From: a virus
Taxonomy: Duplodnaviria > Heunggongvirae > Uroviricota > Caudoviricetes
Reading direction: 5' to 3' (one strand)
DNA length: 64,000 nucleotides
IMG/VR virus record: IMGVR_UViG_3300032315_001694
A program made the translations under genes and the position numbers. Position 1 is the first letter of the stretch. The number at the start of each line of letters is the position of its first letter. The notes beneath the pieces were generated by a model that was not told where the DNA came from, did not search any database, and saw only the letters and a program-made list of their open reading frames with translations. This document shows, piece by piece, positions 27,477 through 55,001 of this stretch.

Positions 27477-28060
27477 TGAATTTACTTGAAAAGATTCAAA
27501 AGTCCAATACTACACTTATTGGATATGACGCTCAGAATGAAATCTCAGTCGAAAAACTGCTGAGATTTCTTCCGAGCGTTACTCTTTTTGAGAACACTTC
27601 TGATAAAGAAGTCTTAGAACATTTTAATTCTCTTTCACATTTTCGAGATTATAAATTAGATTCATTACTTGGTGAACCAGTTAATTTTGTAATTGTTGAT
27701 CTTTCAACAATTTCTTTTGAATCAGAAATAATCAGCAAGTCTAAGATGTATAAAAAATTCATTCAAGAATTACAATCTTTACTTTATACACTTTCAAATT
27801 CAGATAGCATAATAAAGTTTAAGTTAATTTTACTATCAAAGCTTTATGTCTCTATGATACAACTTCAACCACCATTAATACATTTTGGTGTTAGTGATAC
27901 AGCAATTTATATTTCTGATTTAGTCCTAAAGTTTTCGGGAGATATGGTGATTATTGAAAAGGATAGAATATCTACCGATACTTATGTAAATAATATAAAG
28001 CAAGAATTAAGAGAGATATCAATAAATTCAATATTCGATGAAATTACCACAACGACATAA
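27476..28060 (+). CDS. hypothetical protein
   Basis: 194 aa. Confidence 0.4.
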   Translation: MNLLEKIQKSNTTLIGYDAQNEISVEKLLRFLPSVTLFENTSDKEVLEHFNSLSHFRDYKLDSLLGEPVNFVIVDLSTISFESEIISKSKMYKKFIQELQSLLYTLSNSDSIIKFKLILLSKLYVSMIQLQPPLIHFGVSDTAIYISDLVLKFSGDMVIIEKDRISTDTYVNNIKQELREISINSIFDEITTTT

Positions 28061-28715
28061 AGAAGAACTTCTAAAAGAAAAAGAAAAAATCCAAAATTCC
28101 GTAATGACTACCTTCAAAGGCGGATATGATTGGATTAATCCAGAATATAAAGATGTTATAATTGAGAATCTTCAAGTAACAGAATTTACTCAAATGTATC
28201 CTCATATTATGGTTATGTTACATGATGAAGGATTGATTGATATTCCAGAAGAATCAGATAAAATGAAATGGTTTTTTCAAAATGTAAAAAATTTAAAACT
28301 TGCAGGTGATGGTGAGTATTATAAATGGAAAGGTTGGGTTAATTCACTTTATGGTTTGTTTTGGAAACAACCCAAGGGTCTTTTAATCTTTGGTTTAATA
28401 TCTAAATATCAATATCTATTATTTGATGAAATATTGGAAAATAATCCAGAACATATAGTTTATATTGATACTGATATGATTTTATCAGTTAATCCGGTAA
28501 ACTTAGGAGATTGTCCTTTTCCACACTCAACCGATACTTTAACACTTGGCATCATAAATGAAAAGAAGAGGTATATAGTTCATGATGGCAATGAGTTAAA
28601 GATTAAAGGATATCCAACTAGAAAACATGAAGAAGTTAAAAGAGAAGTTCAGTCACGAATCAGACAACTTCAATTAGAAAAATTGGGTATAGGAGAACAA
28701 TTAACATTATTTTAA
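28038..28715 (+). CDS. hypothetical protein
   Basis: 225 aa. Confidence 0.4.
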   Translation: MKLPQRHKEELLKEKEKIQNSVMTTFKGGYDWINPEYKDVIIENLQVTEFTQMYPHIMVMLHDEGLIDIPEESDKMKWFFQNVKNLKLAGDGEYYKWKGWVNSLYGLFWKQPKGLLIFGLISKYQYLLFDEILENNPEHIVYIDTDMILSVNPVNLGDCPFPHSTDTLTLGIINEKKRYIVHDGNELKIKGYPTRKHEEVKREVQSRIRQLQLEKLGIGEQLTLF

Positions 28716-30017: not shown

Positions 30018-30025
30018 TATATTTG
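30018..30025 (+). promoter_or_regulatory. TAtaTTTG -7 promoter element 12 nt upstream of the tRNA-like ncRNA
   Basis: Exact consensus; no protein-coding gene follows. Confidence 0.45.
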
Positions 30026-30036
30026 TAATAGAAAAA

Positions 30037-30202
30037 CAACTCGAAGGCTCTGTGAAGAGCTAGGCCGTCGCATAATAACGGGGTAAGTATCGGTTAGATA
30101 CTACTGCAGAAATGCTATACGTGAGATTGTAACCCGTGGCTGATTCCCTGTTGTAATTCAGAAATGAATTATTGGATGTAGGTTCAAATCCTACCGAGTT
30201 GA
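30037..30202 (+). ncRNA. tRNA-like structured ncRNA, about 166 nt (candidate reduced tmRNA or insertion-containing tRNA)
   Basis: 7-bp acceptor pairing caactcg(30037-43)/cgagttg(30195-201); D-arm gctc-tgtgaa-gagc; T-arm gtagg-ttcaaat-cctac; 6-bp stem with 8-nt loop at 30153-30172; about 90-nt structured insert between the D-arm and the 30153-30172 stem-loop; sits directly downstream of smpB. Confidence 0.4.
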
Positions 30203-30616
30203 CTAAAATTGTGGTAGTAGATGAAACGATATACTCTACACAGCCAGTAAATAAGTTTATCTCCTTGATAAACCTGGTCAACCACCGTTAATTATATACT
30301 ATAAATAAGGAGGTTAATTTTAATATGAGCAACTGGATCGTATTAGGGTTAAAATATACTAGATGAAACCAGTACCCATTTTATATAGTGGTATTAAAAT
30401 GGATTTATGAAATGAACCATTAAATTGAAGAATTAATCTCAATAGTGTGAAATGTTGAGAGAGGCAGAATGGTAACACTGCCAATAAAAAATTAGGAGTA
30501 AAATCCGTAATTTTTTAAGATATAAGTCCAAGTGGTTAGTCCACAAAGTTTTTGTTATAGGTTTTAGGCTTTAGACCTGATAAAGACAGAAGTTCCAAAT
30601 CTTCAATTTTTTTTAT

Positions 30617-30624
30617 TATATTTG
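30617..30624 (+). promoter_or_regulatory. TAtaTTTG -7 promoter element upstream of the yqeY-like gene
   Basis: Consensus match 25 nt before ATG. Confidence 0.4.
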
Positions 30625-30649
30625 TAGAAACAATTAAAACTGATAAAAA

Positions 30650-31054
30650 ATGTCTCTTAAAGAAACAATCAATGCTGACTTCATGAAGGCCTTCAAAGCG
30701 AAGAAGATGGAGTTAAAATCTTTTCTTGGAACCTTGAAAGGTGAAATTCAAAATATTGAGAAAAACTCAATGGTAGAAAACCTTTCAGATGAAGAAGTTA
30801 TCAAAATCTTAAACAAATTTGCTAAAAACTGCAAGGAAAATATCCGTTTAGCTAATGATGAAAAATCAAAAGTTGAATTGGAAGTAATAGAATCATACTT
30901 ACCAAAACAACTTTCAGCTGAAGAAATTCAATCTAAAATTGAAGCTTTAGTTGCCTCTGGTGTTAAAAACATTGGTCAAATCATGAAAGAGTTTTCAACT
31001 CTTCCAGCTGACAAGAAAATTGTCTCTGAAATGGCTAAAAAGGCACTTGTTTAG
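30650..31054 (+). CDS. GatB/YqeY-domain protein
   Basis: MSLKETINADFMKAFKAKK...LSDEEVIKILNKFAK...ESYLPKQLSAEEIQSKIEALVASGVKNIGQIMKEF closely parallels bacterial YqeY (MSLKE..., EEYLPKQLSEEE). Confidence 0.65.
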   Translation: MSLKETINADFMKAFKAKKMELKSFLGTLKGEIQNIEKNSMVENLSDEEVIKILNKFAKNCKENIRLANDEKSKVELEVIESYLPKQLSAEEIQSKIEALVASGVKNIGQIMKEFSTLPADKKIVSEMAKKALV

Positions 31055-40188: not shown

Positions 40189-40917
40189 ATGAATTACGGA
40201 AAAGACTTTAAAAAATTCGCACTTAGTCAAGGCATCTCTTCTACATCACTTGATGCTTTTGAAAACTCAATGACACCGCAAATCATCGAGGAAAGAAAGC
40301 TAAATGCTATATCTATGTCAGTTTTTGACAGATTGATGATGGAAAGAACAATATGGATTTGTTCACCAATCAATAGTCAAATGGCATCAATTATTCAAGC
40401 TCAACTAATTTATCTAGATTCTTTAGAAAAAAAAGATATTACAATACATTGTGATAGTCCGGGTGGTTCGGTAATGGCGGGATTGGGAATAATAGATGTG
40501 ATGAATTATATTAAATCCGATGTTGCTACAATAAATACAGGGTTATGTGCTTCGATGGGAGCAATGATACTTTCAGCCGGACAAAAGGGTAAAAGGAGTT
40601 CGTTATTATTTTCAAGAACAATGATACACCATGTTTCTTCATCTACATCCGGAACAGTAGATGATCAGAGAATTTCTTTAATGGAATCTGAAAAATACAA
40701 TTTTCTTTTAATGAAAATGTTAGCTCGAAACTGTGGTAAAACTTTTGATGAAATACACGACTCTTCAAGAAGGGATAAGTGGTTGAATTCTGATGAATCT
40801 TTAGAATTTGGCATAATTGATGAAATAATCGGACTTGATAAAAATGAAAGTATCACTAAGACGATGGAAGGGTTTGATGAATATTATCAAAAGGAAGTAA
40901 TGATGAGAAATAACTAA
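40189..40917 (+). CDS. clpP: ClpP-family (S14) serine protease
   Basis: ICSPINSQMASIIQAQLIYL...HCDSPGGSVMAGLGIIDVM...INTGLCASMGAMILSAGQKGKRSSLLFSRTMIHH aligns with the ClpP Ser-His-Asp core. Confidence 0.7.
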   Translation: MNYGKDFKKFALSQGISSTSLDAFENSMTPQIIEERKLNAISMSVFDRLMMERTIWICSPINSQMASIIQAQLIYLDSLEKKDITIHCDSPGGSVMAGLGIIDVMNYIKSDVATINTGLCASMGAMILSAGQKGKRSSLLFSRTMIHHVSSSTSGTVDDQRISLMESEKYNFLLMKMLARNCGKTFDEIHDSSRRDKWLNSDESLEFGIIDEIIGLDKNESITKTMEGFDEYYQKEVMMRNN

Positions 40918-47471: not shown

Positions 47472-49016
47472 TTAGTTACAATCGTAACAACTAATATTAC
47501 CTCGACCGTCACAATTTCCACATTCAAAATTACCTCGACCACGACAGTCAGAGCATTCTATTTCTCCATTTCCATTACAGTCTTCACAATTGTTATTTCC
47601 GTTTCCTGAGCAATCTGGACATTCTATTTCATTTCCTTCTTCATCTTCAATGTTTCCTGATCCATCACAGTTGCTACATTCAATATCACCTGATCCTGAA
47701 CAATCATTACAACTAATTTCACCTGATCCTGAACACTCATCACAATCAACTTCACCATTTCCATAACAATCGCTACATTCAATCTCACCATTACCACCAC
47801 AAGTTTCACAAGATGATGAGTGACCACCACCAGTATCTTCTAATGTTACATAGTCTCCTCTTTGTTGTTCACTACTTAATATTCCTCTACCTTCTTGAAA
47901 ATATTTCAAAGTATCTAAGTAAGGATAGTTTGAGTAATCTTTTTTATCTAAATTTACAGTTAAATCTAAATTAACATTTGATCCATCTGGAGCATAAGCT
48001 TTATTATTACCACCACTATTGTTATAGTATTTAGAATACCAACCATTTTCTTTTGCATAATCTCTAAATAATTGAACATCTGAATCATTTATTACATAGA
48101 TTCTATCCATGAATTTTTTACCATCAGTTAGAGTCCAAAGTAAAGCTCTTCCTGTTATTTTATCTGGATCATCTTGTGATTTGAATATAACTAAACTAAC
48201 TTGTTCTGGATTAGCAGTATAAATTTCTAACCAACTCTTTGAGGCAACTGCCATACAAGATGAACCTAAAGTACCAGATCTTTGGTAATATCTATCATAA
48301 TGATACCAATAAGCTATATCAGATCCTTTTACTTCTTCAAAGAAAGAAAACTTATCATTTAATTTATCAATAGTTGCTTTGTAAAGATTTACAAATAATT
48401 CAAGATCTTTATCCGTAAACGCGCCAATTAGAGAAGGTGTAGTAACAGCAGCAGCTTTTAAAAGAGCTCTTACACCTCTACCTACTCCAATTTCTTGTCT
48501 GTTTTTAGACCATACTTGTTTTAACTTCTCATCAACACTTCTTAATTTTTCTACATTATAAACACCTTGTCCATCTGTAAATTTAATCCAAGCATAAGTT
48601 TTACCTGATGTTTCAGAAGTTATTTTTTTAATAACCTCACCTATTTCAGTTGAGTTTGGTGTATAAACATCACCTTCAGGTACATATCCTAGTTTATCAA
48701 ATAATTCTTGATTAGACTCAGAGTGTTTTAACCAACCACCACCAGATCCTACGAATCTAACAGTTTCTTTAGTATCACCAAGTATTTCTTGTGCCTTTCT
48801 ATCTGGTGTGAATGATATTTTATCATTCTTACTTAAATCTATATCAAAATAGTTTGATTGTGTAGTAATGTCTTTATTTTCAGTATCTAATAAAGCTTTA
48901 GAAATTGGATGGTCTATTTTAGTAAGTGCTTTTCTAAATTTATCAGAGAAAATCACATCAGATTCTAGTACTAATTCCAATGATTCATTAATGAAGTCTG
49001 AATATCTTTTTAACAT
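47472..49016 (-). CDS. N-motif family paralog (MLKRYSDFINES) with C-terminal array of about 12 CxxCxGxG zinc-finger-like repeats
   Basis: N-terminal signature; body homologous to 31105..32973; C-terminus CETCGGNGEIECSDCYGNGEVDCDECSGSGEISCNDCSGSGDIECSNCDGSG... is DnaJ-type CxxCxGxG periodicity. Confidence 0.55.
   Translation of the reverse strand: MLKRYSDFINESLELVLESDVIFSDKFRKALTKIDHPISKALLDTENKDITTQSNYFDIDLSKNDKISFTPDRKAQEILGDTKETVRFVGSGGGWLKHSESNQELFDKLGYVPEGDVYTPNSTEIGEVIKKITSETSGKTYAWIKFTDGQGVYNVEKLRSVDEKLKQVWSKNRQEIGVGRGVRALLKAAAVTTPSLIGAFTDKDLELFVNLYKATIDKLNDKFSFFEEVKGSDIAYWYHYDRYYQRSGTLGSSCMAVASKSWLEIYTANPEQVSLVIFKSQDDPDKITGRALLWTLTDGKKFMDRIYVINDSDVQLFRDYAKENGWYSKYYNNSGGNNKAYAPDGSNVNLDLTVNLDKKDYSNYPYLDTLKYFQEGRGILSSEQQRGDYVTLEDTGGGHSSSCETCGGNGEIECSDCYGNGEVDCDECSGSGEISCNDCSGSGDIECSNCDGSGNIEDEEGNEIECPDCSGNGNNNCEDCNGNGEIECSDCRGRGNFECGNCDGRGNISCYDCN
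47480..47830. repeat. about 24-nt periodic repeats encoding CxxCxGxG modules
   Basis: Reiterated tg(t/c)...gg(a/t)aatgg / gattgtga motifs visible at DNA level. Confidence 0.6.
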
Positions 49017-49230: not shown

Positions 49231-49571
49231 TAATACAAACCTCAATTCGGTTTACGGAGTCCTAAGATAGAAATATCGGAAAAGATACGCAAGACCTCGT
49301 GAAAGTAAAGGCGTAAATTGAATTGATTTTTAAAAAATATTTACAAAAAAGTTTGGTGGTGTAAAAAATCCACCTTATCTTTGTAAAAGAAATCAAAATT
49401 AACAAAAAGGGACTTAAATCCTATAATATATACTGAAATGAAAAATCTAAATCTAAATATGAATAATCTCTTGAACATGGTGAATACGTTATGTATTAGA
49501 ACCAAGAGTTCGGGTTATGCCAAATTTAGATTTATGTAAATGACTGTACACAAAAACTAAACCTAACAAAA

Positions 49572-49607
49572 AACCCGAACTCGTAAAAAAGTTCGGGTTT
49601 TTTTGTT
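49572..49607 (+). terminator. rho-independent terminator (aacccgaac/gttcgggtt plus T7)
   Basis: 9-bp stem followed by tttttttg; upstream copy of agttcgggtt at 49509-49518 could form an alternative pairing. Confidence 0.55.
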
Positions 49608-49765
49608 TTAAACAATATTAAAAAAATAACAATGAAAATTATAATGATAAACGGTAAAGTTTTCGCTAAAGTTAAAATGACTTCTGAGAATATTGAAAGA
49701 TGTTTTCCAATGGCGAAAAAAATCATAGAGATTCCAGGGGGATGGAATATCGTGATATAAAAAGA

Positions 49766-49855
49766 GGTCCTGTGGCGAAAATGGCAGAAACGCATCAGAC
49801 TTAAAATCTGATACCCAAGAGGTAAACGTTGTGGGTTCGACTCCCACCAGGATCA
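49766..49855 (+). tRNA. tRNA-Leu (anticodon TAA), type II
   Basis: Acceptor ggtcctg/caggatc; Leu-type D-arm gtggcgaaaatggcagaaacgc; anticodon stem tcaga/tctga with loop cttaaaa; 19-nt variable arm; T-arm gtggg-ttcgact-cccac. Confidence 0.65.
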
Positions 49856-49920
49856 CAAATGTGAGAGACCGTTTTTAGTTTTTAACAGGACACAAGAGTG
49901 GAATCGTAGAAAACTAAATT

Positions 49921-50003
49921 GGCCGAGTGGTGTAATGGCAGCCACGCCAGTCTAAGAATCTGGTGTCCGTGAGGACGTGAGAGTTCAAGTCTCTCCTTGG
50001 TCA
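49921..50003 (+). tRNA. type II tRNA (Leu/Ser-like); anticodon loop ctaagaa, assignment ambiguous
   Basis: Acceptor ggccgag/cttggtc (two G-U pairs); long variable arm with gtcc/ggac stem; T-arm gagag-ttcaagt-ctctc; anticodon stem has a T-T mismatch. Confidence 0.45.
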
Positions 50004-50021
50004 CAGAGTTGTTTTAAAAAT

Positions 50022-50100
50022 GCACCCGTAATCGAGGCTTCCTTCTAAGTTGCTAATCGTAGCGGAATTGAAAACGTGGGTTCGAATCCCTCCGGGTGTT
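50022..50100 (+). tRNA. tRNA-like element with canonical acceptor and T-arm but interior that does not fold into a standard D/anticodon cloverleaf by eye
   Basis: gcacccg/cgggtgt acceptor pairing 79 nt apart; T-arm gtgggttcgaatccctc. Confidence 0.3.
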
Positions 50101-50110
50101 CAAAAAATAT

Positions 50111-50191
50111 TGGTGGATAGCATAGCGGTTCATGCATCAGACTGTTAATCTGAGACTTAGGTCAACGTGGGTTCGAATCCCACTCCATCAG
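50111..50191 (+). tRNA. tRNA-Asn (anticodon GTT) with 13-nt variable region
   Basis: Acceptor tggtgga/tccatca; D-stem gcat/atgc; anticodon stem tcaga/tctga, loop ctGTTaa; T-arm gtggg-ttcgaat-cccac. Confidence 0.6.
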
Positions 50192-50200
50192 CTGAAAATA

Positions 50201-50282
50201 CGGCAAATACCAGCACATCCTGATAAGATGTAGAACTGTAATTGGTAAGTTGAAAATGTGGGTTCGAATCCCTCTTTGCCGA
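50201..50282 (+). tRNA. tRNA-like element, noncanonical interior (same architecture as 50022..50100)
   Basis: cggcaaa/tttgccg perfect 7-bp acceptor; identical T-arm gtgggttcgaatccctc; shared ttgaaaa motif before the T-stem. Confidence 0.3.
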
Positions 50283-50291
50283 CAAAAATAT

Positions 50292-50362
50292 TCCTCAGAA
50301 GCTCAGTGGCGAGCAACGTTCTGTTAAATCGTAGGAAGTCGGATCGTAACCGGCCTGGGGAG
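50292..50362 (+). tRNA. tRNA with anticodon loop ctGTTaa (Asn-like), imperfect anticodon stem
   Basis: Acceptor tcctcag/ctgggga; D-arm gctc-agtggc-gagc; T-arm gtcgg-atcgtaa-ccggc. Confidence 0.4.
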
Positions 50363-50369
50363 CAAAAAA

Positions 50370-50454
50370 GCATAGATGTCCGAGTGGCGAAGGATACGGT
50401 CTGCAAAACCGTAAGTTTAAATACTCATCGGGGGTTCGAGTCCCTCTCTATGCT
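50370..50454 (+). tRNA. tRNA-Cys (anticodon GCA) with unusual 17-nt variable region
   Basis: Acceptor gcataga/tctatgc; anticodon stem acggt/accgt, loop ctGCAaa; T-arm ggggg-ttcgagt-ccctc. Confidence 0.5.
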
Positions 50455-50462
50455 CAAAGTAT

Positions 50463-50548
50463 AGTCCTGTAGCTCAGTTGGTTGAGAGCGCTTGTTTTAC
50501 ACACAAGAGGCCACAAGGTTAACATCGGTTCGAATCCGGTCAGGACTA
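50463..50548 (+). tRNA. tRNA-Val (anticodon TAC) with 16-nt variable region
   Basis: Acceptor agtcctg/caggact; D-arm gctc-agttggttga-gagc; anticodon stem cttgt/acaag, loop ttTACac; T-arm atcgg-ttcgaat-ccggt. Confidence 0.55.
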
Positions 50549-50554
50549 CAAAAT

Positions 50555-50627
50555 TGTCAGTTAGCTCATTTGGTAGAGCACCACTCTGATAAAGTGGAGG
50601 TGCCGGGATCGTAACCCGGACTGACAA
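50555..50627 (+). tRNA. tRNA-Ile (anticodon GAT)
   Basis: Acceptor tgtcagt/actgaca; D-arm gctc-atttggta-gagc; anticodon stem ccact/agtgg, loop ctGATaa; 5-nt variable; T-arm ccggg-atcgtaa-cccgg. Confidence 0.7.
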
Positions 50628-50633
50628 CAATAA

Positions 50634-50714
50634 GCCAAGGTGGGACAGTGGTTGACTCCACCTCACTTGTAATGAGGAACACAAACATCGTCGGTTCGAA
50701 TCCGACCCTTGGCT
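50634..50714 (+). tRNA. tRNA-Thr (anticodon TGT) with 12-nt variable region
   Basis: Acceptor gccaagg/ccttggc; anticodon stem cctca/tgagg, loop ctTGTaa; T-arm gtcgg-ttcgaat-ccgac. Confidence 0.55.
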
Positions 50715-50721
50715 CAAAAAT

Positions 50722-50795
50722 AGTTCTGTAGCTCAGTTGGTTAGAGCGTTTGGTCGACATCCAAAAGGTCACTGGTTCGAATCCAGTTAGGACTA
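50722..50795 (+). tRNA. tRNA-Val (anticodon GAC)
   Basis: Acceptor agttctg/taggact; D-arm gctc-agttggtta-gagc; anticodon stem tttgg/ccaaa, loop tcGACat; T-arm actgg-ttcgaat-ccagt. Confidence 0.65.
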
Positions 50796-50803
50796 CAAAA
50801 AAT

Positions 50804-50876
50804 GCTGAGGTCGTATAAATGGCTATTACACACCGTTGGTATCGGTGCGACACCGGATCGTTACCGGTCTTCAGCT
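50804..50876 (+). tRNA. tRNA-Thr (anticodon GGT)
   Basis: Acceptor gctgagg/cttcagc; anticodon stem caccg/cggtg, loop ttGGTat; T-arm accgg-atcgtta-ccggt. Confidence 0.6.
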
Positions 50877-50881
50877 CAAAT

Positions 50882-50953
50882 GCTCTTGTAGCCCAATGTA
50901 GAGGCATACGCCTTAGAAGCGTAGTAGTATCGGTTCGATCCCGTTCAGGAGCA
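50882..50953 (+). tRNA. tRNA with anticodon TAG (Leu codon CUA) but short variable loop (class I body)
   Basis: Acceptor gctcttg/caggagc; anticodon stem tacgc/gcgta, loop ctTAGaa; 5-nt variable; T-arm atcgg-ttcgatc-ccgtt (one mismatch). Confidence 0.45.
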
Positions 50954-50958
50954 CAATT

Positions 50959-51034
50959 GCAGAAGTGGCGAAATTGGTAGTACGCGCTGAGCTCAAACCT
51001 CAGTTTTTTGTGGGTTCGAATCCCACCTTCTGTA
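50959..51034 (+). tRNA. tRNA-Leu-like (anticodon CAA) with Leu-type D-arm but short variable loop
   Basis: Acceptor gcagaag/cttctgt; D-arm gtggcgaaattggtagtacgc; anticodon stem ctgag/ctcag, loop ctCAAac; T-arm gtggg-ttcgaat-cccac. Confidence 0.5.
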
Positions 51035-51072
51035 CACGGTTAATGGAGTTCGAATGTTTTATATATACTATT

Positions 51073-51591
51073 ATGAAAGAAAAAATACTTGAACTGAGAA
51101 AAAATGGATTGAGTTATGTTGAAATACAAAAACAACTTGGATGTTCTAAATCAACTATATCCTATAACTGTAAAAAAAATGGACTGACTGATATAGGATT
51201 AAAAGATAAAAAAAGAAAATTAAGAGGAACAAAGATTTGTGAAAATTGTAATATAGAGTTTAGCTTAACTGGTATATCTAAAGATAGGATATTTTGTTGT
51301 AAAGAGTGCTATAACAAAAGTGAAAAGAAAAGAAAAGAGGGTAGAAATTTCGGATTATATTCATCACAAATACAAAAAGAAAGAAGAAGAAGTAAAAACG
51401 AAATTTATTTTTTTGAGCTGTGTAAGGAAAAATATGAAGAAGTGTTAAGTAATGAAGCAATTTTTAATGGGTGGGACGCTGATGTAATAATTGTAAATTA
51501 TAAAGTTGCTATTTTATGGAATGGAAAATGGCATTATGAAAAAATAAAAAACAACACTCTGTTAAGCAAGTTCAGAACAGAGATTCTTTAA
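51073..51591 (+). CDS. HTH plus Vsr/DUF559-like endonuclease (freestanding homing-endonuclease-like gene inside the tRNA array)
   Basis: N-terminal HTH (LSYVEIQKQLGCSKSTISY); Cys4 region; C-terminal DADVIIVNYKVAILWNGKWH resembles the Vsr/DUF559 core. The tracked ORF start at 50965 overlaps a tRNA, so the Met at 51073 is used. Confidence 0.5.
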   Translation: MKEKILELRKNGLSYVEIQKQLGCSKSTISYNCKKNGLTDIGLKDKKRKLRGTKICENCNIEFSLTGISKDRIFCCKECYNKSEKKRKEGRNFGLYSSQIQKERRRSKNEIYFFELCKEKYEEVLSNEAIFNGWDADVIIVNYKVAILWNGKWHYEKIKNNTLLSKFRTEIL

Positions 51592-51690
51592 AAATTAAAG
51601 AAATAAAATCTTGTGGATATTTACCATATGTTATTAAAGATATGGGTCGAGAAAATAAAGATTTTGTTAAAAGTGAATTTGAAAAATTAA

Positions 51691-51767
51691 CCGGATATAT
51701 ATCCTCGCTCTCATAAGGCGTAGAAAGATTAGTTGGCTTCACGGTGGTTCGATTCCACCTATCCGGA
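51691..51767 (+). tRNA. tRNA-like element with canonical acceptor and T-arm, noncanonical interior
   Basis: ccggata/tatccgg perfect acceptor; T-arm ggtgg-ttcgatt-ccacc. Confidence 0.3.
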
Positions 51768-51772
51768 CAAGT

Positions 51773-51843
51773 GGTTCCATAGTTTAATGAAAAACCTCTC
51801 GGTCCTAACGAGAGATATACGAGTTCAAATCTCGTTGGAACCC
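51773..51843 (+). tRNA. tRNA-Arg (anticodon CCT)
   Basis: Acceptor ggttcca/tggaacc; D-arm gttt-aatgaa-aaac; anticodon stem tctcg/cgaga, loop gtCCTaa; T-arm acgag-ttcaaat-ctcgt. Confidence 0.6.
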
Positions 51844-52121: not shown

Positions 52122-52200
52122 AATGAAACAAATTGTAAACAGAAATAGAAATAACCGAACAGATTCCGTCTGATTAGGATATTTTTGCTCTAAAAAATAA

Positions 52201-52236
52201 CCCCATCAGATAAACTGATGGGGTTTTTTATTTTTA
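52201..52236 (+). terminator. rho-independent terminator (ccccatcag/ctgatgggg plus T-run)
   Basis: 9-bp stem, 5-nt loop, tttttt. Confidence 0.6.
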
Positions 52237-52258: not shown

Positions 52259-53434
52259 ATGAAAATAGATATTAATAAAATTAAATTGACACCAGAAAAT
52301 TTAGGATTCAATTTTTGCCAATTTGGAAATCTAACAGATGAAATTTCAGAATGGGTTAACTATTGGGGATTTAAAACACAAAATTCAGTACAATTCACCA
52401 ATATATTAATTGATGAATCTACTAATTTTGATGAAATATTTAATTTACCAATTCAATATGAATGGATTGATGGGTTTAGTCCGAATCTAAACAAACATCT
52501 TCATATTGGACATTTATCAAATCTTGTAATAGCAAATGCTATTCAAAAATTAAATATTGGTAATAAATTTATAGCAATATTAGGAGATACTTTGGATGGA
52601 AATGTAAAGAAAACAGACGCGTTAAACTCATATTTAAACCATTGTAAAAACTTTGGATATCAAATAGATGAAACAGTATATGCTTCTAGTATGAAAATAA
52701 AGAATGATATATTAAAAGAAGGTGAAGGTGATTATTTAGGATCCAAAGTTTTTGATTTAGGTGATGAAAAAATTGTTGGAATTAAAAGTTCAGGAATGAC
52801 AACTTATTTCTATCAAGATGTTGCTTTAGCTGAATATCTTAATTCATCAACTCTATATCTAACAGGATTTGAACAAGATAATCACTTTAAATCTTTAAAG
52901 AAATTATTTCCTCAAACAAACCATATTGGATTAGGATTAGTCCAATTAGGTGGTAAAAAAATGAGTAGTAGTGAGGGGAATATAATTTATTTAGACGATT
53001 TTATAAATCATCTATTACAACTATTTAATAATGATATTCACTTGGTTTATAATATTTTAGCTGGTCAGATTTTAAAATCATCACCCGGAAGTAATAAAAC
53101 AATTGATATGAATTTAATTTCAAATCCGAAATTGTCATTGGGACTTTATTTAAGCTACACATTAGCACATATTAAGAGTTGTGGAGTTGAAACTAAAAAT
53201 ATAAATCAATACGAATCAAAAGAATTACAATTTGCTCATTTAAAATCCAAAATAAACTTAACACCAAATATTCTTTTTGAATCTTTGGTTAAACACTCAA
53301 AAAAAATTAATAAACTATATGAAACGCATTATATAAAAGACAATCAGGACAATATTGAATTGTTTTCAAATCTTATCTCAGATTTGGAATTTGGAATGAA
53401 AAATCTTGGAATGTTTTCAATAAAAAAAGTATAA
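52259..53434 (+). CDS. class I aminoacyl-tRNA synthetase catalytic core, arginyl-tRNA-synthetase-like (truncated; no obvious anticodon-binding domain)
   Basis: DGFSPNLNKHLHIGHLSNLVIANAI matches the ArgRS signature (SPN-x-AK-x-x-H-x-GHLRS-x-x-IG); KMSSS (KMSKS-like) at GGKKMSSSEGN; only 391 aa. Confidence 0.5.
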   Translation: MKIDINKIKLTPENLGFNFCQFGNLTDEISEWVNYWGFKTQNSVQFTNILIDESTNFDEIFNLPIQYEWIDGFSPNLNKHLHIGHLSNLVIANAIQKLNIGNKFIAILGDTLDGNVKKTDALNSYLNHCKNFGYQIDETVYASSMKIKNDILKEGEGDYLGSKVFDLGDEKIVGIKSSGMTTYFYQDVALAEYLNSSTLYLTGFEQDNHFKSLKKLFPQTNHIGLGLVQLGGKKMSSSEGNIIYLDDFINHLLQLFNNDIHLVYNILAGQILKSSPGSNKTIDMNLISNPKLSLGLYLSYTLAHIKSCGVETKNINQYESKELQFAHLKSKINLTPNILFESLVKHSKKINKLYETHYIKDNQDNIELFSNLISDLEFGMKNLGMFSIKKV

Positions 53435-53439
53435 AAATT

Positions 53440-54621
53440 ATGAAAGGCTGGATAAAATCAATAAGACAATCAAAAGGTTTAACCTTTATGACTATTACCG
53501 ATGGTAAAATGGACCATCAACTAACCTTAAAAGAAGGCGAATATTTAATGACTGGTGATTTAAAAGTCGGAGCCTCATTTATATCTGAAGGCACCGATTC
53601 AACTACACCTAGAGGATTACCCGAATTTGTAGTTTCTAAAATAGAAATTATAGGTACATCCGATGATGAATACCCAATACAACCAAAACATCACACACCT
53701 GAGTTTCTAAGAAGTATTCCACATCTAAGGGGTAGAGCTAAGGCTTTACAATCAACTTGGAAGGTCAGACACTACCTAACACAAGGAATTCATAGATTCT
53801 TCGAAGATGAAGGATTCTTCCAATATTACACTCCTATTATCACACATGCTGATTGTGAGGGTGCTGGTGAAACATTTGTGGCTAAATCAGATTGGATGGA
53901 AGAAAAATTAACCGTATCTGGACAATTACATGGTGAGGTCGGAATGATGTCACTGGGTAAGATTTATACCTTCTCTCCTTGTTTCAGAGCTGAAAAATCG
54001 ACCACTAAAAAACACTTATCTGAATTTTGGATGATTGAACCAGAAATGGCATTTTATGACTTAGATGAAACTATTAAGTTAGCAGAAAAGATGGTAAAAG
54101 GAGCTATATCTTATGTTATTTCTAAATCAGAATATGACTTCAAACAATTAGGTGTTGATTCATCTTTATTAACTACAATCGTTGAGAAAGATTGGATGAA
54201 AGTTTCTTATTCTGAAATAGTTAAATCATTTGGTGTAAAATGGGGTGATGATATTTCTTCAGAAATAGAGCAGAAAATTGTATCACATTACGGTGTTCCG
54301 GTTTTCGTTACACATTATCCGAAAGAATTGAAACCGTTTTATATGAAGAAAGGAGAATTTGTGGCTGATTGTTTTGATTTAATCTTTCCGGTGGTTGGTG
54401 AAATCATTGGAGGTTCTCAACGAGAAGAAGATTATCAAACTCTTAAAACTGAAATGGAAAGGTCTGAATTAGATATTGATAAAATGCAATGGTATTTAGA
54501 TACTCGTAAGTGGGGTTCTGTTCCACACTCAGGTTTTGGTTTAGGATTTGAGAGATTGCTAATGTTTATTACTGGGGCTACAAAGATTCACGATGTGATT
54601 CCTTTTCCAGTAAGCTATTAA
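53440..54621 (+). CDS. asnS: asparaginyl-tRNA synthetase (class IIb)
   Basis: N-terminal OB region (GWIKSIRQSKGLTFMTITDG); motif 2 FSPCFRAE; AsnRS-specific FWMIEPEMAF; motif 3 GSVPHSGFGLGFERL. Confidence 0.75.
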   Translation: MKGWIKSIRQSKGLTFMTITDGKMDHQLTLKEGEYLMTGDLKVGASFISEGTDSTTPRGLPEFVVSKIEIIGTSDDEYPIQPKHHTPEFLRSIPHLRGRAKALQSTWKVRHYLTQGIHRFFEDEGFFQYYTPIITHADCEGAGETFVAKSDWMEEKLTVSGQLHGEVGMMSLGKIYTFSPCFRAEKSTTKKHLSEFWMIEPEMAFYDLDETIKLAEKMVKGAISYVISKSEYDFKQLGVDSSLLTTIVEKDWMKVSYSEIVKSFGVKWGDDISSEIEQKIVSHYGVPVFVTHYPKELKPFYMKKGEFVADCFDLIFPVVGEIIGGSQREEDYQTLKTEMERSELDIDKMQWYLDTRKWGSVPHSGFGLGFERLLMFITGATKIHDVIPFPVSY

Positions 54622-54641: not shown

Positions 54642-55001
54642 TTAAAAGTATTTAGAAAACTCCTTGGATTCTTTGAACCAGGAGTTTTCTTTTGCCATTA
54701 ATTCGAAAATATTATGATTCTTTTCACACAATTCGAGAAATTGTGTAACTTGTTCTAACTCTAACTTAAACCATTCACCTTCACAACGCCATTGATTATA
54801 GTAACGATGTAAACTCGACTCTATTCTTGGTCCCCATTTAGATTCGAAAACATCAACAAGTTCTAACTCTTGTGAGTTACCAGTTTTCAATTCTTTAAGT
54901 CGTTTATTTGGATCTCTTTTAGTCCAACCGATTTTATAATAAGGACCATCTGTGTGATGAGCAGAGATTAAGTAAATCTTATACATGAAGTATATATTCA
55001 C
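54642..55001 (-). CDS. T5orf172/MUG113-type (GIY-YIG-like) domain protein
   Basis: YKIGWTKRDPNKRLKELKTGNSQELELV matches the T5orf172 domain signature. Confidence 0.55.
   Translation of the reverse strand: MNIYFMYKIYLISAHHTDGPYYKIGWTKRDPNKRLKELKTGNSQELELVDVFESKWGPRIESSLHRYYNQWRCEGEWFKLELEQVTQFLELCEKNHNIFELMAKENSWFKESKEFSKYF
54657..54694. terminator. hairpin plus T-run downstream of asnS, between convergent genes
   Basis: aactcc.../...ggagtt stem followed by ttttcttttg; overlaps the 3' end of the minus-strand ORF. Confidence 0.4.

What the first reader, a model, noticed from the sequence alone, without database searches (positions are those of the whole stretch)
50022..51767. Non-standard tRNA architectures: extended variable regions in normally class-I tRNAs, Leu-anticodon tRNAs with class-I bodies, and three tRNA-like elements with unfoldable interiors
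Read by hand: tRNA-Asn(GTT) has a 13-nt variable region, tRNA-Cys(GCA) 17 nt, tRNA-Val(TAC) 16 nt, tRNA-Thr(TGT) 12 nt. These species normally have 4-5 nt. Conversely, elements with Leu anticodons TAG (50882..50953) and CAA (50959..51034) have short variable loops although bacterial tRNA-Leu is always type II; the latter keeps a Leu-type D-arm. Three elements (50022..50100, 50201..50282, 51691..51767) have perfect 7-bp acceptor stems and canonical T-arms, but between them I cannot fold standard D and anticodon arms. Two of these share the same T-arm and a ttgaaaa motif. These could be pseudo-tRNAs, tRNAs with noncanonical cores, tRNA-derived decoys against anticodon nucleases, or carriers of altered identity. 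Hand folding may have misplaced arms.
Basis: seen in the sequence. Interest (0 to 1): 0.65.

Follow-up and report, generated by a model that had tools for sequence, protein, structure and literature searches.

The report
Phage tRNAs with rearranged body plans
A huge phage carries a row of 18 tRNA genes, several built on body plans that break textbook rules, including three from a widespread, apparently undescribed tRNA shape in which the D arm is rewired around the anticodon arm.

Summary
ARAGORN and Rfam confirm variable regions of 13, 17, 16 and 12 nt in tRNA-Asn, Cys, Val(UAC) and Thr(UGU), and class-I-sized tRNA-Leu(UAG) and Leu(CAA).

The three "unfoldable" elements are not junk. They belong to a conserved tRNA family: at least 120 metagenome contigs, 41 IMG/VR viral contigs, and one cultured phage (Maribacter phage Panino). 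Only 4 hits occur in 185,579 species genomes, all on MAG contigs.

- These tRNAs have no D hairpin. Three nucleotides after U8-A9-N10 pair with three nucleotides located after the anticodon arm (helix X). A D-loop-like U-A-R-Y-Y-G-G segment and a linker to a normal T arm follow.
- Covariation supports every helix. It also supports a Levitt-pair analogue (R15/Y48: 78 of 79 sequences G-C or A-U).
- Family anticodons are only Ile, Arg or CAU. Element A is Arg(UCU), B is Ile(GAU), C is CAU.
- ARAGORN default finds 0 of 85 members.
- Related phage arrays are syntenic and often carry two body plans for the same anticodon.

Most likely these are working phage tRNAs. Why the shapes differ is inferred, not shown. 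Literature searches found no description of this architecture.

The parts
49568..49603 (.). Bidirectional intrinsic terminator that closes the upstream unit. It is followed by a sigma70-like promoter match at 49618-49645.
   Evidence: 14-15-bp stem plus T run; promoter match TTAAAA-16-TATAAT, 10 of 12.
49766..49855 (+). tRNA-Leu(UAA), ordinary class II, 90-91 nt.
   Evidence: Rfam 56.7 bits.
49921..50003 (+). tRNA-Leu(AAG), ordinary class II.
   Evidence: Rfam 43.9 bits; 98% identical to L131 Leu(AAG).
50022..50100 (+). Element A: transposed-D tRNA-Arg(UCU).
- Acceptor 50022-28 with 50093-99.
- Helix X: CGA 50033-35 with UCG 50057-59.
- Anticodon stem 50037-41 with 50049-53, with two U-U mismatches.
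- Anticodon 50044-46.
- D-loop-like UAGCGGA 50060-66.
- Y48-like C at 50075.
- T arm 50076-92.
   Evidence: R1 model 57.2 bits, E 1e-13. Aligns with the Arg subfamily in A3. Covariation. No Rfam tRNA hit at E<=10. ARAGORN default misses it.
50111..50191 (+). tRNA-Asn(GUU) on a class-II-like body: 13-nt variable arm (GAC/GUC hairpin) and G73.
   Evidence: Sixteen long Asn orthologues have covarying V stems.
50201..50282 (+). Element B: transposed-D tRNA-Ile(GAU).
- Acceptor 50201-07 with 50275-81.
- Helix X: CAG 50211-13 with CUG 50236-38.
- Anticodon arm 50215-31; anticodon 50222-24.
- D-loop-like UAAUUGG 50239-45.
- Y48-like U at 50257.
- T arm 50258-74.
- A73.
   Evidence: R1 88.3 bits. Covariation in A2. 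RNAalifold predicts the same fold. No Rfam tRNA hit.
50292..50362 (+). Second tRNA-Asn(GUU), normal length. T loop is AUCGUAA (A54/U58).
   Evidence: Rfam 42 bits. ARAGORN finds it only with relaxed settings.
50370..50454 (+). tRNA-Cys(GCA) with a 17-nt variable arm, a class-II-type D arm and U73.
   Evidence: Orthologues of 84-89 nt.
50463..50548 (+). tRNA-Val(UAC) with a 16-nt variable arm (GGCC-ACAA-GGUU) and A73.
   Evidence: It is 93% identical to the L067 88-nt Val(UAC). Its next nearest relatives are class-I Val tRNAs.
50555..50627 (+). tRNA-Ile(GAU), cloverleaf, with T loop AUCGUAA. It shares its anticodon with element B.
50634..50714 (+). tRNA-Thr(UGU) with a 12-nt unpaired A/C-rich variable loop.
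   Evidence: It is 94% identical to the L094 82-nt Thr(UGU).
50722..50795 (+). tRNA-Val(GAC), canonical.
   Evidence: Rfam 65.9 bits.
50804..50876 (+). tRNA-Thr(GGU), normal length, T loop AUCGUUA.
50882..50953 (+). tRNA-Leu(UAG) without a variable arm (72-73 nt). It has A73, a Leu-type 3-bp D stem, and a shortened D loop lacking GG.
   Evidence: A family of class-I-sized Leu tRNAs appears.
50959..51034 (+). tRNA-Leu(CAA) without a variable arm (76-77 nt). It has a Leu-type D arm and A73.
   Evidence: Its nearest relative is a class-II Leu(CAA) of 82 nt at 79% identity.
51073..51591 (+). 172-aa ORF with an N-terminal HTH domain that interrupts the tRNA array.
   Evidence: Pfam HTH_38 and HTH_23. 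It is absent at this position in related arrays.
51691..51767 (+). Element C: transposed-D tRNA with anticodon CAU (Met or lysidine-Ile2).
- Helix X: AUC 51701-03 with GAU 51727-29.
- Anticodon 51712-14.
- D-loop-like UAGUUGG 51730-36.
- Y48-like C at 51742.
- T arm 51743-59.
- A73.
   Evidence: R1 39.6 bits, E 1e-8. Rfam tRNA 29.5 bits, against a gathering score of 29. Orthologues at L050:1477-1552 and L051:708-784.
51773..51843 (+). tRNA-Arg(CCU), canonical.
52199..52225 (.). Bidirectional intrinsic terminator that closes the tRNA unit.

Best explanation
Window 49766-51843 is one transcription unit of 18 tRNA genes in an AT-rich (30.5% GC) huge phage. All the oddities are conserved gene families rather than decay. 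They fall into three departures from the universal tRNA body plan.

1. Class-I amino acids on class-II-like bodies. Asn, Cys and Val(UAC) carry a 3-4-bp variable-arm hairpin. Thr(UGU) carries a long unpaired variable loop.

2. tRNA-Leu without the variable arm (UAG, CAA).

3. A non-cloverleaf architecture, which I call transposed-D.
- A 7-bp acceptor is followed by U8-A9-N10.
- Three nucleotides then pair with three nucleotides that lie after the anticodon arm (helix X). The anticodon arm is therefore nested inside what replaces the D stem.
- Next comes U-A-R-Y-Y-G-G-N, the counterpart of A14, R15, G18, G19 and N20 of a D loop.
- A 6-11-nt linker follows. Its last base pairs with 'R15', like the Levitt pair.
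- A normal T arm completes the molecule.
- Element A is Arg(UCU), B is Ile(GAU), and C is CAU.

Shown: the families, their fold, their restriction to Ile, Arg and CAU anticodons, and their synteny.

Inferred:
- They fold into an L shape, with helix X stacked on the anticodon stem and the GG touching the T loop.
- They are cut out by RNase P and 3' nucleases, receive CCA (none is encoded), and are charged with the cognate amino acid.
- They read the phage's abundant A/U-rich codons. AGA is 63% of Arg codons and AUU+AUC is 72% of Ile codons.

More speculative: the phage keeps two body plans per anticodon so that translation survives something that recognises the tRNA body. That could be a host tRNA-targeting defence or a phage-inflicted attack on host tRNAs.
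For: Fold.
- MAFFT alignments were made without structural input. In A2 (50 Ile-type sequences), 98.2% of cells are paired against 69.9% in shuffles. The covariation score is 0.73 against 0.18, and at most 0.14 when partners are slid.
- In A3 (29 Arg-type sequences), 93.1% of cells are paired and the covariation score is 0.73.
- Helix X pairs in A2: 13-38 is GC30/AU19/UA1; 14-37 is GC21/UA14/AU12. In A3, 14-37 is AU8/GC8/UG8.
- RNAalifold independently returns the same structure.
- The R15/Y48 analogue is GC41/AU8/other1 in A2 and AU22/GC7 in A3. It is never G-U. It also holds by eye in nearly all members that lack the search motif (one exception, L050:1477-1552).

Identity.
- Distinct members carry only UAU, GAU, UCU, ACG, UCG, CCU, GCG or CAU anticodons.
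- All 50 Ile-type members have A73.
- All 29 Arg-type members have A after GG, against 1 of 48 Ile-type members. A20 is the main ArgRS determinant in E. coli, and A73 plus the anticodon determine Ile identity (PMC9976931).

Distribution.
- 41 IMG/VR contigs, up to 476 kb.
- 4 MAG contigs among 185,579 species genomes.
- No model hit in about 400 kb of unrelated viral loci.
- Maribacter phage Panino carries one (47.6 bits).

Synteny and doublets. The array order is shared by six contigs, with A-type and B-type genes in fixed places. Pairs with the same anticodon but different bodies recur.

Long-V families. Orthologues keep the long arm, and the V stems covary.

Short Leu. E. coli LeuRS needs A73, A15-U48 and G18G19, not the V arm (PMC9976931).

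Transcription. Terminators bracket the array.

Codon usage.
Against: - No expression, processing, charging or decoding data exist for any member.
- The window's element A has two U-U mismatches in a 5-bp anticodon stem. That is an outlier in its family (1 and 3 unpaired cells of 29 at those two pairs), so this copy may be weakened.
- Leu(UAG) lacks G18G19.
- Helix X is only 3 bp, and its first pair is invariant.
- Most family members were retrieved with a 22-nt motif covering the linker and T arm. Conservation of that part is therefore by construction.
- Related sequences can inflate shuffle-based scores.
- A non-cloverleaf tRNA working on a bacterial ribosome has no natural precedent. PMC11551756 states that all known bacterial tRNAs are cloverleaves.
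- Nothing in the 64-kb window points to a tRNA nuclease or a tRNA repair enzyme, so the 'escape' rationale has no local support.
Confidence: 0.72

Rival explanations
1. The odd elements are pseudogenes or decaying duplicates of tRNA genes, kept only because phage arrays tolerate junk.
For: - Element A has two U-U mismatches in its anticodon stem, and Leu(UAG) has lost GG in its D loop.
- ARAGORN and Rfam score these genes poorly.
Against: - Compensatory changes occur in the acceptor, helix X and anticodon stems across 79 distinct sequences.
- The anticodon set is restricted to Ile, Arg and CAU.
- Synteny is fixed in six contigs.
- The family is present in hundreds of contigs from many environments.
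Confidence: 0.04
2. They are non-translating decoys or sponges. They would be tRNA look-alikes that soak up host anticodon nucleases or other tRNA-binding defence proteins, without being charged or used by ribosomes.
For: - Anticodon loops are canonical while bodies are altered.
- Same-anticodon doublets exist.
- From my own knowledge, not tested here: phage tRNAs are known to counter tRNA-cleaving defences.
Against: - A decoy needs only the nuclease's recognition site. These RNAs also keep a full acceptor/T minihelix and amino-acid-specific discriminators (A73 in 50 of 50 Ile-type).
- They keep an A20-like base specific to the Arg type and a Levitt-pair analogue.
- In this window and in phage Panino, the noncanonical Arg(UCU) is the only AGA reader found in the stretches examined, and AGA is the main Arg codon.
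Confidence: 0.1
3. They are identity-switched tRNAs that recode sense codons. For example, class-II-like bodies would be charged by SerRS, LeuRS or TyrRS and insert Ser, Leu or Tyr at Asn, Cys, Val or Thr codons, as proposed for allo-tRNAs and nematode nov-tRNAs.
For: - Long variable arms sit on non-Leu/Ser/Tyr anticodons.
- The Asn form has G73, which is also the Ser discriminator.
- The D arms of the long Asn and Cys tRNAs resemble class-II D arms.
Against: - Discriminators follow the anticodon's own rules: G73 Asn, U73 Cys, A73 Val (PMC9976931).
- V stems are 3-4 bp, shorter than Ser arms.
- The long Val is closest to class-I Val tRNAs.
- Standard-code translation gives canonical CxxCxGxG repeats at UGU codons. 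It also gives an AsnRS above the NCBIfam equivalog cut-off and a full ClpP.
Confidence: 0.04
4. They are private substrates of phage-encoded synthetases, forming semi-orthogonal pairs. The adjacent AsnRS would charge the long-arm tRNA-Asn, and the truncated ArgRS-like protein would charge the transposed-D tRNA-Arg. The phage could then translate independently of host charging.
For: - A bona fide AsnRS (433 bits against a cut-off of 414) and a 391-aa ArgRS-like protein lie 0.4-1.6 kb downstream of the array. The ArgRS-like protein scores 41 bits to argS, has HIGH and KMSSS motifs, and has only about 60 residues before HIGH.
- The same arrangement occurs in LR745206.1.
Against: - The ArgRS-like gene occurs in only two other records among 50,697 phage genomes. 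The tRNA family is far more widespread, and phage Panino has the tRNA but gave no match to this protein.
- No IleRS is present in the window.
- The invariant A20-like base suggests recognition by an ordinary ArgRS.
Confidence: 0.1

Closest known systems
Canonical cloverleaf tRNA (Rfam RF00005), including ordinary phage tRNA arrays such as those of T4 and T5
   Same: - 7-bp acceptor stem.
- 5-bp T stem with a UUCGAAU loop.
- 5-bp anticodon stem with a 7-nt loop and U33.
- U8, an A14-like A, GG, and an R15/Y48-type pair.
- Tight polycistronic array without encoded CCA.
   Different: - Elements A, B and C have no D hairpin.
- The partner strand of the D stem and the D-loop-like segment lie 3' of the anticodon arm.
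- The other variants swap class I and class II variable regions.
Class II tRNAs (bacterial Leu, Ser, Tyr)
   Same: The Asn, Cys and Val(UAC) genes have a variable-arm hairpin of 3-4 bp, often with a GNRA loop. The Asn and Cys genes have a class-II-type 3-bp D stem.
   Different: - Their anticodons and discriminators belong to class-I amino acids.
- Conversely, two Leu tRNAs here lack the arm. According to PMC9976931, that is otherwise seen only in animal mitochondria.
allo-tRNAs and (8/4) tRNA-Ser/His of bacteria and phages (Mukai et al., PMC5389517)
   Same: They are non-standard tRNA architectures discovered in metagenomes, some in phage tRNA clusters, and they are missed or mis-scored by standard finders.
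   Different: Those change the acceptor/T split to 8/4 or 9/3 and keep a D hairpin. Here the split is the standard 7/5, and it is the D arm that is rewired.
D-armless mitochondrial tRNAs of metazoa (for example mt-tRNA-Ser(AGY) and nematode mt-tRNAs; review PMC7609411)
   Same: Only a short connector lies between the acceptor and the anticodon stem, with no D hairpin.
   Different: - Mitochondrial forms are shrunken, lack the D-loop/T-loop contact, and need adapted EF-Tu and ribosomes.
- The phage family is full-sized (76-82 nt). It keeps a canonical T arm, adds helix X, and keeps a relocated GG-containing segment with a Levitt-pair analogue.
nov-tRNAs of nematodes (Hamashima et al. 2016, cited in PMC5389517; details from my own knowledge)
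   Same: Long variable arms sit on tRNAs whose anticodons belong to class-I amino acids.
   Different: nov-tRNAs keep Leu or Ser identity elements and are thought to misdecode. The phage tRNAs carry the discriminator of the anticodon's own amino acid.
Phage tRNAs that escape tRNA-targeting defences, such as T5 tRNA variants and anticodon-loop variants (my own knowledge, not checked here)
   Same: The phage supplies its own copy of a tRNA the host already has, plausibly to keep translating under attack.
   Different: Known cases differ by point changes in the anticodon loop or stem. Here whole architectural elements are changed, and no link to a defence system has been shown.

Membership tests
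tRNA (functional definition) | 7-bp acceptor stem coaxial with a 5-bp T stem and a 7-nt T loop (UUCRANY) | tested here: met
   Acceptor pairs are 96.6-98.9% paired with 6-7 covarying pairs. The T loop is UUCGAAU or UUCGAUU. A and B have a U-U at pair 50-64.
tRNA (functional definition) | 5-bp anticodon stem, 7-nt loop with U33 and a purine at 37 | tested here: met
   In the Ile-type family the stem is 100% paired and all 5 pairs covary. B is perfect. C has 4 bp plus a U-U. A has 3 bp plus two U-U.
tRNA (functional definition) | Expressed, 5'/3' processed, CCA-tailed, aminoacylated, and active on ribosomes | not testable with these tools
   Only context is available: in-line position in a terminator-bracketed array.
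Canonical cloverleaf tRNA (Rfam RF00005) | D hairpin (3-4-bp stem, 7-11-nt loop) between position 9 and the anticodon stem | tested here: not met
   Only 7-9 nt separate the acceptor from the anticodon stem in A, B, C and in all family members.
Canonical cloverleaf tRNA (Rfam RF00005) | Score at or above the Rfam gathering threshold (29 bits) | tested here: inconclusive
   - A and B give no hit at E<=10, and C scores 29.5 bits.
- In 20 other loci, 10 of about 22 members reach 30-40 bits, against 45-75 for ordinary tRNAs.
- ARAGORN default finds 0 of 85.
Canonical tRNA tertiary core | U8-A14, R15-Y48 Levitt pair, and G18G19 for the elbow | tested here: met
   - Invariant U8, A9 and G-U-A.
- R15/Y48 analogue is G-C or A-U in 78 of 79 sequences.
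- GG is present in 48 of 50 Ile-type and 29 of 29 Arg-type members.
- Geometry itself was not tested.
Class II tRNA (Leu/Ser/Tyr) | Variable arm of more than 10 nt forming a stem-loop | tested here: met
   Asn 13 nt, Cys 17 nt and Val(UAC) 16 nt have hairpins. Thr(UGU) has 12 nt, unpaired. V stems covary among orthologues.
Class II tRNA (Leu/Ser/Tyr) | Anticodon and discriminator of Leu, Ser or Tyr | tested here: not met
   The combinations are GUU/G73, GCA/U73, UAC/A73 and UGU/U73.
Bacterial tRNA-Leu | A73, a Leu-type D arm (3-bp stem, A14, A15, G18G19, A20a) and a long variable arm | tested here: inconclusive
   - A73 is present in both short Leu tRNAs.
- Leu(CAA) has the full Leu-type D arm. 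Leu(UAG) has the stem but no GG.
- The variable arm is absent in both.
- E. coli LeuRS does not need the arm (PMC9976931).
allo-tRNA / (8/4) tRNAs | Acceptor/T split of 8/4 or 9/3 with a long V arm | tested here: not met
   All elements here are 7/5.
Mitochondrial-type D-armless tRNA | D arm replaced by a short connector with no replacement helix, reduced size, and loss of the D-T loop contact | tested here: not met
   The connector is short, but helix X and a GG-bearing segment are present. Length is 76-82 nt.
tmRNA / tRNA-like domain | Acceptor/T minihelix without an anticodon arm, plus an mRNA-like region | tested here: not met
   Anticodon arms are present. There is no tmRNA hit for A, B or C beyond an 18-nt T-arm fragment match of 10.9 bits, far below the gathering score of 47.

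The most novel reading that the evidence does not exclude
The transposed-D RNAs are a new, topologically rewired tRNA fold that works on bacterial ribosomes. Together with the arm-gain and arm-loss variants, they form a deliberately shape-diversified second set of tRNAs, with two body plans per anticodon. This set would keep phage translation running when a body-reading tRNA-targeting system, either host defence or the phage's own host shut-off, removes the standard shapes.
Probability: 0.2. Interest if true: 0.95.

Novelty: new variant of a known kind. Interest (0 to 1): 0.82.

Why it matters
The cloverleaf is treated as universal outside animal mitochondria. A 2024 paper states that all known bacterial tRNAs adopt it (PMC11551756).

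- A full-sized, covariation-supported tRNA family with a rewired D arm would be a natural counter-example. It is widespread in large phages and present in a cultivable one.
- It would test directly which parts of the tRNA core RNase P, the CCA enzyme, ArgRS, IleRS, EF-Tu and the ribosome actually need.
- These genes are invisible to ARAGORN and marginal for the Rfam model, so phage tRNA repertoires and codon-coverage analyses are undercounted. At least one GenBank record has a spurious ORF over such a gene.
- The recurring same-anticodon, different-body pairs suggest a selective pressure on tRNA shape in phage-host conflict that has not been described.
- Such scaffolds are also candidates for orthogonal tRNAs in genetic-code engineering.

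Tried and rejected
1. My first reading paired UACC (positions 8-11) with GGUA downstream. I dropped it because many members have GGG or GGA there. The covariation sits instead in the three bases just before the invariant G-U-A.

2. ARAGORN's relaxed calls are artefacts. They gave A as a 4-base 'gcta' anticodon (Ser|Pyl), B as a 92-nt Ile starting at 50192, and C as a 90-nt Met starting at 51679. They use wrong acceptor stems and ignore the perfect 7-bp stems.

3. An intron or a permuted-gene explanation does not work. The acceptor halves are at the outer ends, and no excision of a contiguous segment restores a D hairpin.

4. I considered an origin of the long Asn and Cys tRNAs from tRNA-Tyr by a one-base anticodon change. 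Nearest-neighbour comparison gave only same-anticodon long forms and then a mixture, so it is not supported.

5. A general link between the ArgRS-like ORF and the Arg-type tRNA fails. The protein is confined to two other huge-phage records.

6. RNAalifold on the long Asn family did not recover the V stem, because MAFFT scattered gaps there. The V-stem covariation therefore rests on reading the sequences.

7. Literature searches found no description of this fold or of class-switched phage tRNAs (reading). The library lacks most subscription papers.

Full report
WHAT IS THERE

ARAGORN with default settings finds 12 tRNA genes on the + strand between 49766 and 51844. The Rfam tRNA model adds a second tRNA-Asn(GUU) at 50292-50362 (42 bits). 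It gives a borderline hit at 51691-51767 (29.5 bits against a gathering score of 29).

Both tools put long insertions in the variable region of four tRNAs:
- Asn(GUU) 50111-50191: 13 nt
- Cys(GCA) 50370-50454: 17 nt
- Val(UAC) 50463-50548: 16 nt
- Thr(UGU) 50634-50714: 12 nt

Minimum-energy folds give a cloverleaf plus a variable-arm hairpin for Asn (GAC/GUC) and Val (GGCC/GGUU). Leu(UAG) 50882-50953 and Leu(CAA) 50959-51034 are 72-77 nt long with 5-6-nt variable loops and A73.

CONTEXT

- The window is 30.5% G+C.
- Its closest database relative over this stretch is LR745206.1, a 634-kb uncultured phage.
- The window encodes an S1-domain protein, NAD-dependent DNA ligase, ClpP, an M16 peptidase, an SPFH protein, a collagen-repeat protein and an FKBP isomerase. 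Just downstream of the array lie an AsnRS and a truncated ArgRS-like protein.
- Two strong bidirectional terminators (49568-49603 and 52199-52225) bracket the array. A sigma70-like promoter match follows the first terminator.
- Spacers between genes are 5-17 nt, and no gene encodes CCA.

THE THREE 'UNFOLDABLE' ELEMENTS

A scan for a 7-bp acceptor adjacent to a T arm recovered all three elements. It also found close relatives of element B in other phage contigs.

A 22-nt motif shared by A and B (linker plus 5' half of the T arm) was then searched widely:
- 41 IMG/VR viral contigs of 4-476 kb
- only four hits among 185,579 species genomes, all on MAG contigs

These yielded 85 distinct full-length elements. 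Their anticodons are UAU (34), GAU (21), UCU (15), ACG (10), UCG (3 after correcting one mis-parse) and CCU (2). That is isoleucine and arginine only.

MAFFT alignments made without structural input (A2: 50 Ile-type; A3: 29 Arg-type) show one common plan:
- acceptor (7 bp)
- invariant U8-A9 plus one base (two in most Arg-type members, including element A)
- three bases
- one base
- anticodon arm (5 bp stem plus 7-nt loop)
- three to five bases
- three bases
- invariant U-A, then R, one to three pyrimidine-rich bases, GG, N
- a linker (GUUGAAAAY in most)
- T arm and acceptor 3' strand

The two three-base segments pair with each other. I call this helix X. Its first pair is an invariant C-G.
- In the Ile type, the second pair is GC30/AU19/UA1 and the third is GC21/UA14/AU12.
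- In the Arg type, the second pair is GC22/AU4/CG2/UA1 and the third is AU8/GC8/UG8/CG1.

Over the whole structure, 98.2% and 93.1% of cells are paired, against about 68-70% in shuffles. Covariation scores are 0.73, against about 0.2 in shuffles and at most 0.14 when partners are slid. RNAalifold, run independently, returns exactly this structure.

A canonical D arm is impossible. Only 7-9 nt lie between the acceptor and the anticodon stem.

A TERTIARY-PAIR SIGNATURE

The purine after the invariant U-A covaries with the last linker base before the T stem:
- G with C in 41, and A with U in 8, of 50 Ile-type sequences
- A with U in 22, and G with C in 7, of 29 Arg-type sequences
- never G with U
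- the same rule holds by eye in nearly all members found without the motif (one exception, L050:1477-1552)

This is the pattern of the R15-Y48 Levitt pair.

With invariant U8, the A14-like A, and GG four to six bases further on, the segment after helix X reads like a D loop. It has been moved to the 3' side of the anticodon arm.

In chain terms, the strand after U8-A9 takes the place of positions 22-25 and runs straight into the anticodon stem. The strand after the anticodon arm takes the place of positions 10-13 and runs into the 'D loop'. The linker then replaces the variable loop.

The stacked length is 5 bp, an internal loop and 3 bp. That equals the length of the anticodon stem plus position 26 plus the D stem. 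This 3D reading is inference.

IDENTITY SIGNALS

- All 50 Ile-type members have A73.
- All 29 Arg-type members have A directly after GG, against 1 of 48 Ile-type members.
- In E. coli, A20 is the main arginine determinant, and A73 plus the anticodon determine isoleucine (PMC9976931).

These amino-acid-specific features argue for charging by ordinary synthetases.

ASSIGNING THE WINDOW'S ELEMENTS

A covariance model built from the Ile-type alignment (R1) scores B at 88.3 bits, A at 57.2 bits (E 1e-13) and C at 39.6 bits (E 1e-8). Each shows the predicted helix X.
- A aligns with the Arg type and has loop CUUCUAA, so it is Arg(UCU). Its anticodon stem GCUUC/GUUGC has two U-U mismatches, which is an outlier in the family.
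- B is Ile(GAU) with perfect stems.
- C has helix X AUC/GAU, UAGUUGG, a short linker and anticodon CAU.

C belongs to a short-linker subfamily that also contains GAU and UAU members. CAU orthologues lie at L050:1477-1552 and L051:708-784. In related arrays a Met(CAU) gene sits at the corresponding place. I therefore leave open whether C is Met or lysidine-Ile2.

The model found 152 hits in 100 metagenome loci, with anticodons limited to Ile, Arg and CAU. It found none in about 400 kb of unrelated viral loci.

A CULTURED EXAMPLE AND DETECTABILITY

Maribacter phage Panino (PP540027.1; host Maribacter halichondriae, Flavobacteriaceae) has an Arg(UCU) member between its tRNA-Val and tRNA-Met (L156 2464-2543; 47.6 bits). 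GenBank annotates no tRNA there and places a 'hypothetical protein' over part of it. The phage's description reports 20 tRNAs and does not mention it (PMC11590407).

ARAGORN default finds 0 of 85 family members. The Rfam model reaches its threshold for 10 of about 22 members in 20 loci, at 30-40 bits against 45-75 for ordinary tRNAs.

THE OTHER VARIANTS ARE FAMILIES TOO

Across all fetched loci, tRNA lengths are bimodal for many amino acids.

Genes of 80 nt or more:
- Asn: 16 of 52
- Cys: 6 of 22
- Thr(UGU): 10 of 23
- Val(UAC): 9 of 32
- Gly(UCC): 7 of 36
- Gln(UUG): 5 of 27
- Trp: 5 of 17
- His: 3 of 21

Leu genes shorter than 80 nt:
- UAA: 13 of 29
- UAG: 7 of 28
- CAA: 3 of 14

Each long-arm tRNA of the window has long-arm orthologues with the same anticodon: Val 93%, Thr 94% and Cys 81% identical.

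The long Asn variable arms are 3-4-bp stems that covary, often capped by GNRA loops. Observed stems are GAC/GUC, GAGC/GCUC, GGGA/UCCC, GAA/UUC, GAAU/GUUC, GAG/CUC, AGC/GCU, GGA/UCC and GAAC/GUUC.

The long Val is next closest to class-I Val tRNAs, which points to arm gain. The short Leu(CAA) is closest to a class-II Leu(CAA), which points to arm loss.

A class-I-sized Leu family shares a Leu-type D arm across UAA, UAG and CAA anticodons and always has A73. That fits a synthetase that ignores the anticodon and does not need the arm (PMC9976931).

SYNTENY AND DOUBLETS

Six contigs share the same gene order:

Leu(UAA) > Leu(AAG) > Arg*(UCU) > Asn > Ile*(GAU) > Val(UAC) > Ile(GAU) > Cys > Thr(UGU) > Val(GAC) > Thr(GGU) > Leu(UAG) > Leu(CAA) > Met(CAU)

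Asterisks mark the transposed-D type.

Genes with the same anticodon but different bodies recur, usually side by side:
- Arg* with Arg(UCU)
- Asn 88 with Asn 74
- Cys 89 with Cys 75
- Val 84 with Val 77
- Pro 87 with Pro 76
- Asp 90 with Asp 73
- Leu(UAA) 76 with Leu(UAA) 92
- Ile* with Ile(GAU)

In the window, Asn and Ile are doublets. Arg(UCU) and Cys are present only in the unusual form within this array.

HOW IT MOST LIKELY WORKS

Shown: conserved families, their folds, and their identity-consistent features.

Inferred: they are matured from one transcript and receive CCA. They are charged with the cognate amino acid and decode codons the phage uses heavily. AGA is 63% of Arg codons, AUU+AUC is 72% and AUA 28% of Ile codons, and UUA is 50% of Leu codons.

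The reason for the altered bodies is not shown. The doublets suggest non-redundant roles. I favour robustness against something that reads the tRNA body, but no nuclease, ligase or defence gene in the window supports this.

A private synthetase-tRNA pairing is possible for Asn and Arg in this phage. It cannot be general, because the ArgRS-like gene occurs in only two other phage records.

Recoding is unlikely. Discriminators match the anticodons. Standard-code translation also yields intact CxxCxGxG repeats, a full AsnRS and ClpP.

COMPARISON WITH WHAT IS KNOWN

- The long-arm and armless variants resemble class switching known from nematode nov-tRNAs and animal mitochondria. Here, however, cognate identity marks are kept.
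- The transposed-D family is not an allo-tRNA. The acceptor/T split is 7/5, not 8/4 or 9/3 (PMC5389517).
- It is not a mitochondrial-type D-armless tRNA either. It is full-sized, with helix X and a relocated GG loop (PMC7609411).
- A 2020 review of non-canonical tRNAs does not mention phages or this plan. The huge-phage paper says only that phage tRNAs differ from host sequences (PMC7162821). A 2024 paper states that all known bacterial tRNAs are cloverleaves (PMC11551756).
- Seven full-text searches found no description. The library omits most subscription journals, so prior description cannot be excluded.

CAVEATS

- Most members were fetched with a motif covering the linker and T arm, so conservation of that part is by construction.
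- Shuffle controls ignore relatedness. The slid controls and the many pair types are the stronger evidence.
- Helix X is short.
- Element A and Leu(UAG) of this particular window carry defects that may reduce function.
- No experimental data exist.

Noticed in passing
window 30036-30203 (+), within an ORF-free stretch of about 30020-30650: CAACUCG (30039-45) pairs perfectly with CGAGUUG (30194-200), right after a canonical T arm GUAGG-UUCAAAU-CCUAC. Together they form an acceptor/T minihelix that closes a roughly 150-nt structured interior (MFE -51 kcal/mol, z -3.0). There is no tmRNA or other Rfam hit; the tRNA model gives 21.4 bits. It may be a tmRNA-like or tRNA-like large RNA.
   Followed up: partly
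window 50292-50362, 50555-50627, 50804-50876; also five tRNAs in L001: Normal-length tRNAs (Asn, Ile, Thr-GGU) carry T loops AUCGUAA or AUCGUUA. That is A54 with U58 instead of the near-universal U54 with A58, an apparent swap of the reverse-Hoogsteen pair.
   Followed up: no
window 52259-53434 (+) and 53440-54621 (+): - A 391-aa protein has HIGH (HIGH) and KMSKS-like (KMSSS) motifs and weak ArgRS similarity (argS 41 bits against a cut-off of 262). It has only about 60 residues before HIGH, so it probably lacks the D-loop-binding N-terminal domain.
- Homologues occur only in the huge phages LR745206.1 (72%) and LR756504.1 (51%).
- The next gene is a bona fide but short (393 aa) AsnRS.
   Followed up: partly
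window 51073-51591 (+) and 54642-55001 (-): An HTH-domain ORF interrupts the tRNA array between Leu(CAA) and element C, where related arrays have no gene. A T5orf172/MUG113 (GIY-YIG-like) ORF lies after the AsnRS. Both look like mobile or homing-endonuclease-type insertions.
   Followed up: no
window 50882-50953: The class-I-sized tRNA-Leu(UAG) has a shortened D loop (CAAUGUAGA) without the GG found in its relatives (CAAUUGGUAGA). This copy may have lost the D-loop/T-loop contact.
   Followed up: no
L156 (PP540027.1, Maribacter phage Panino) 2464-2543; record 28066-28145: An unannotated transposed-D tRNA-Arg(UCU) in a cultured phage. The GenBank 'hypothetical protein' CDS 27999-28106 overlaps it and is probably spurious. 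A 1830-aa ORF annotated 'tRNA methyltransferase' starts 80 nt downstream.
   Followed up: partly
L122:1234-1326, L056:604-692, L050:3282-3372, L094:5604-5692: Some family members of 88-93 nt carry an extra hairpin inside the linker between the D-loop-like segment and the T arm, for example GGCA-UUUUU-GCC and UUGAGAUA-GUAUCAA. This amounts to a variable arm added on top of the transposed-D plan.
   Followed up: no
L029 12741-13241; L049, L094, L131, L001 arrays: Whole blocks are duplicated with one long and one short version. An example is Gln-Pro(87)-Asp(90) followed by Gln-Pro(76)-Asp(73). This suggests tandem duplication followed by arm gain or loss.
   Followed up: partly
window 12340-13449 (-), 40189-40917 (+), 47472-49016 (-): The phage encodes an S1-like protein with several S1 domains, a ClpP protease, and a 514-aa protein ending in about ten CxxCxGxG zinc-finger repeats (DnaJ / anti-TRAP-like). 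These indicate a broader investment in translation and protein quality control.
   Followed up: no
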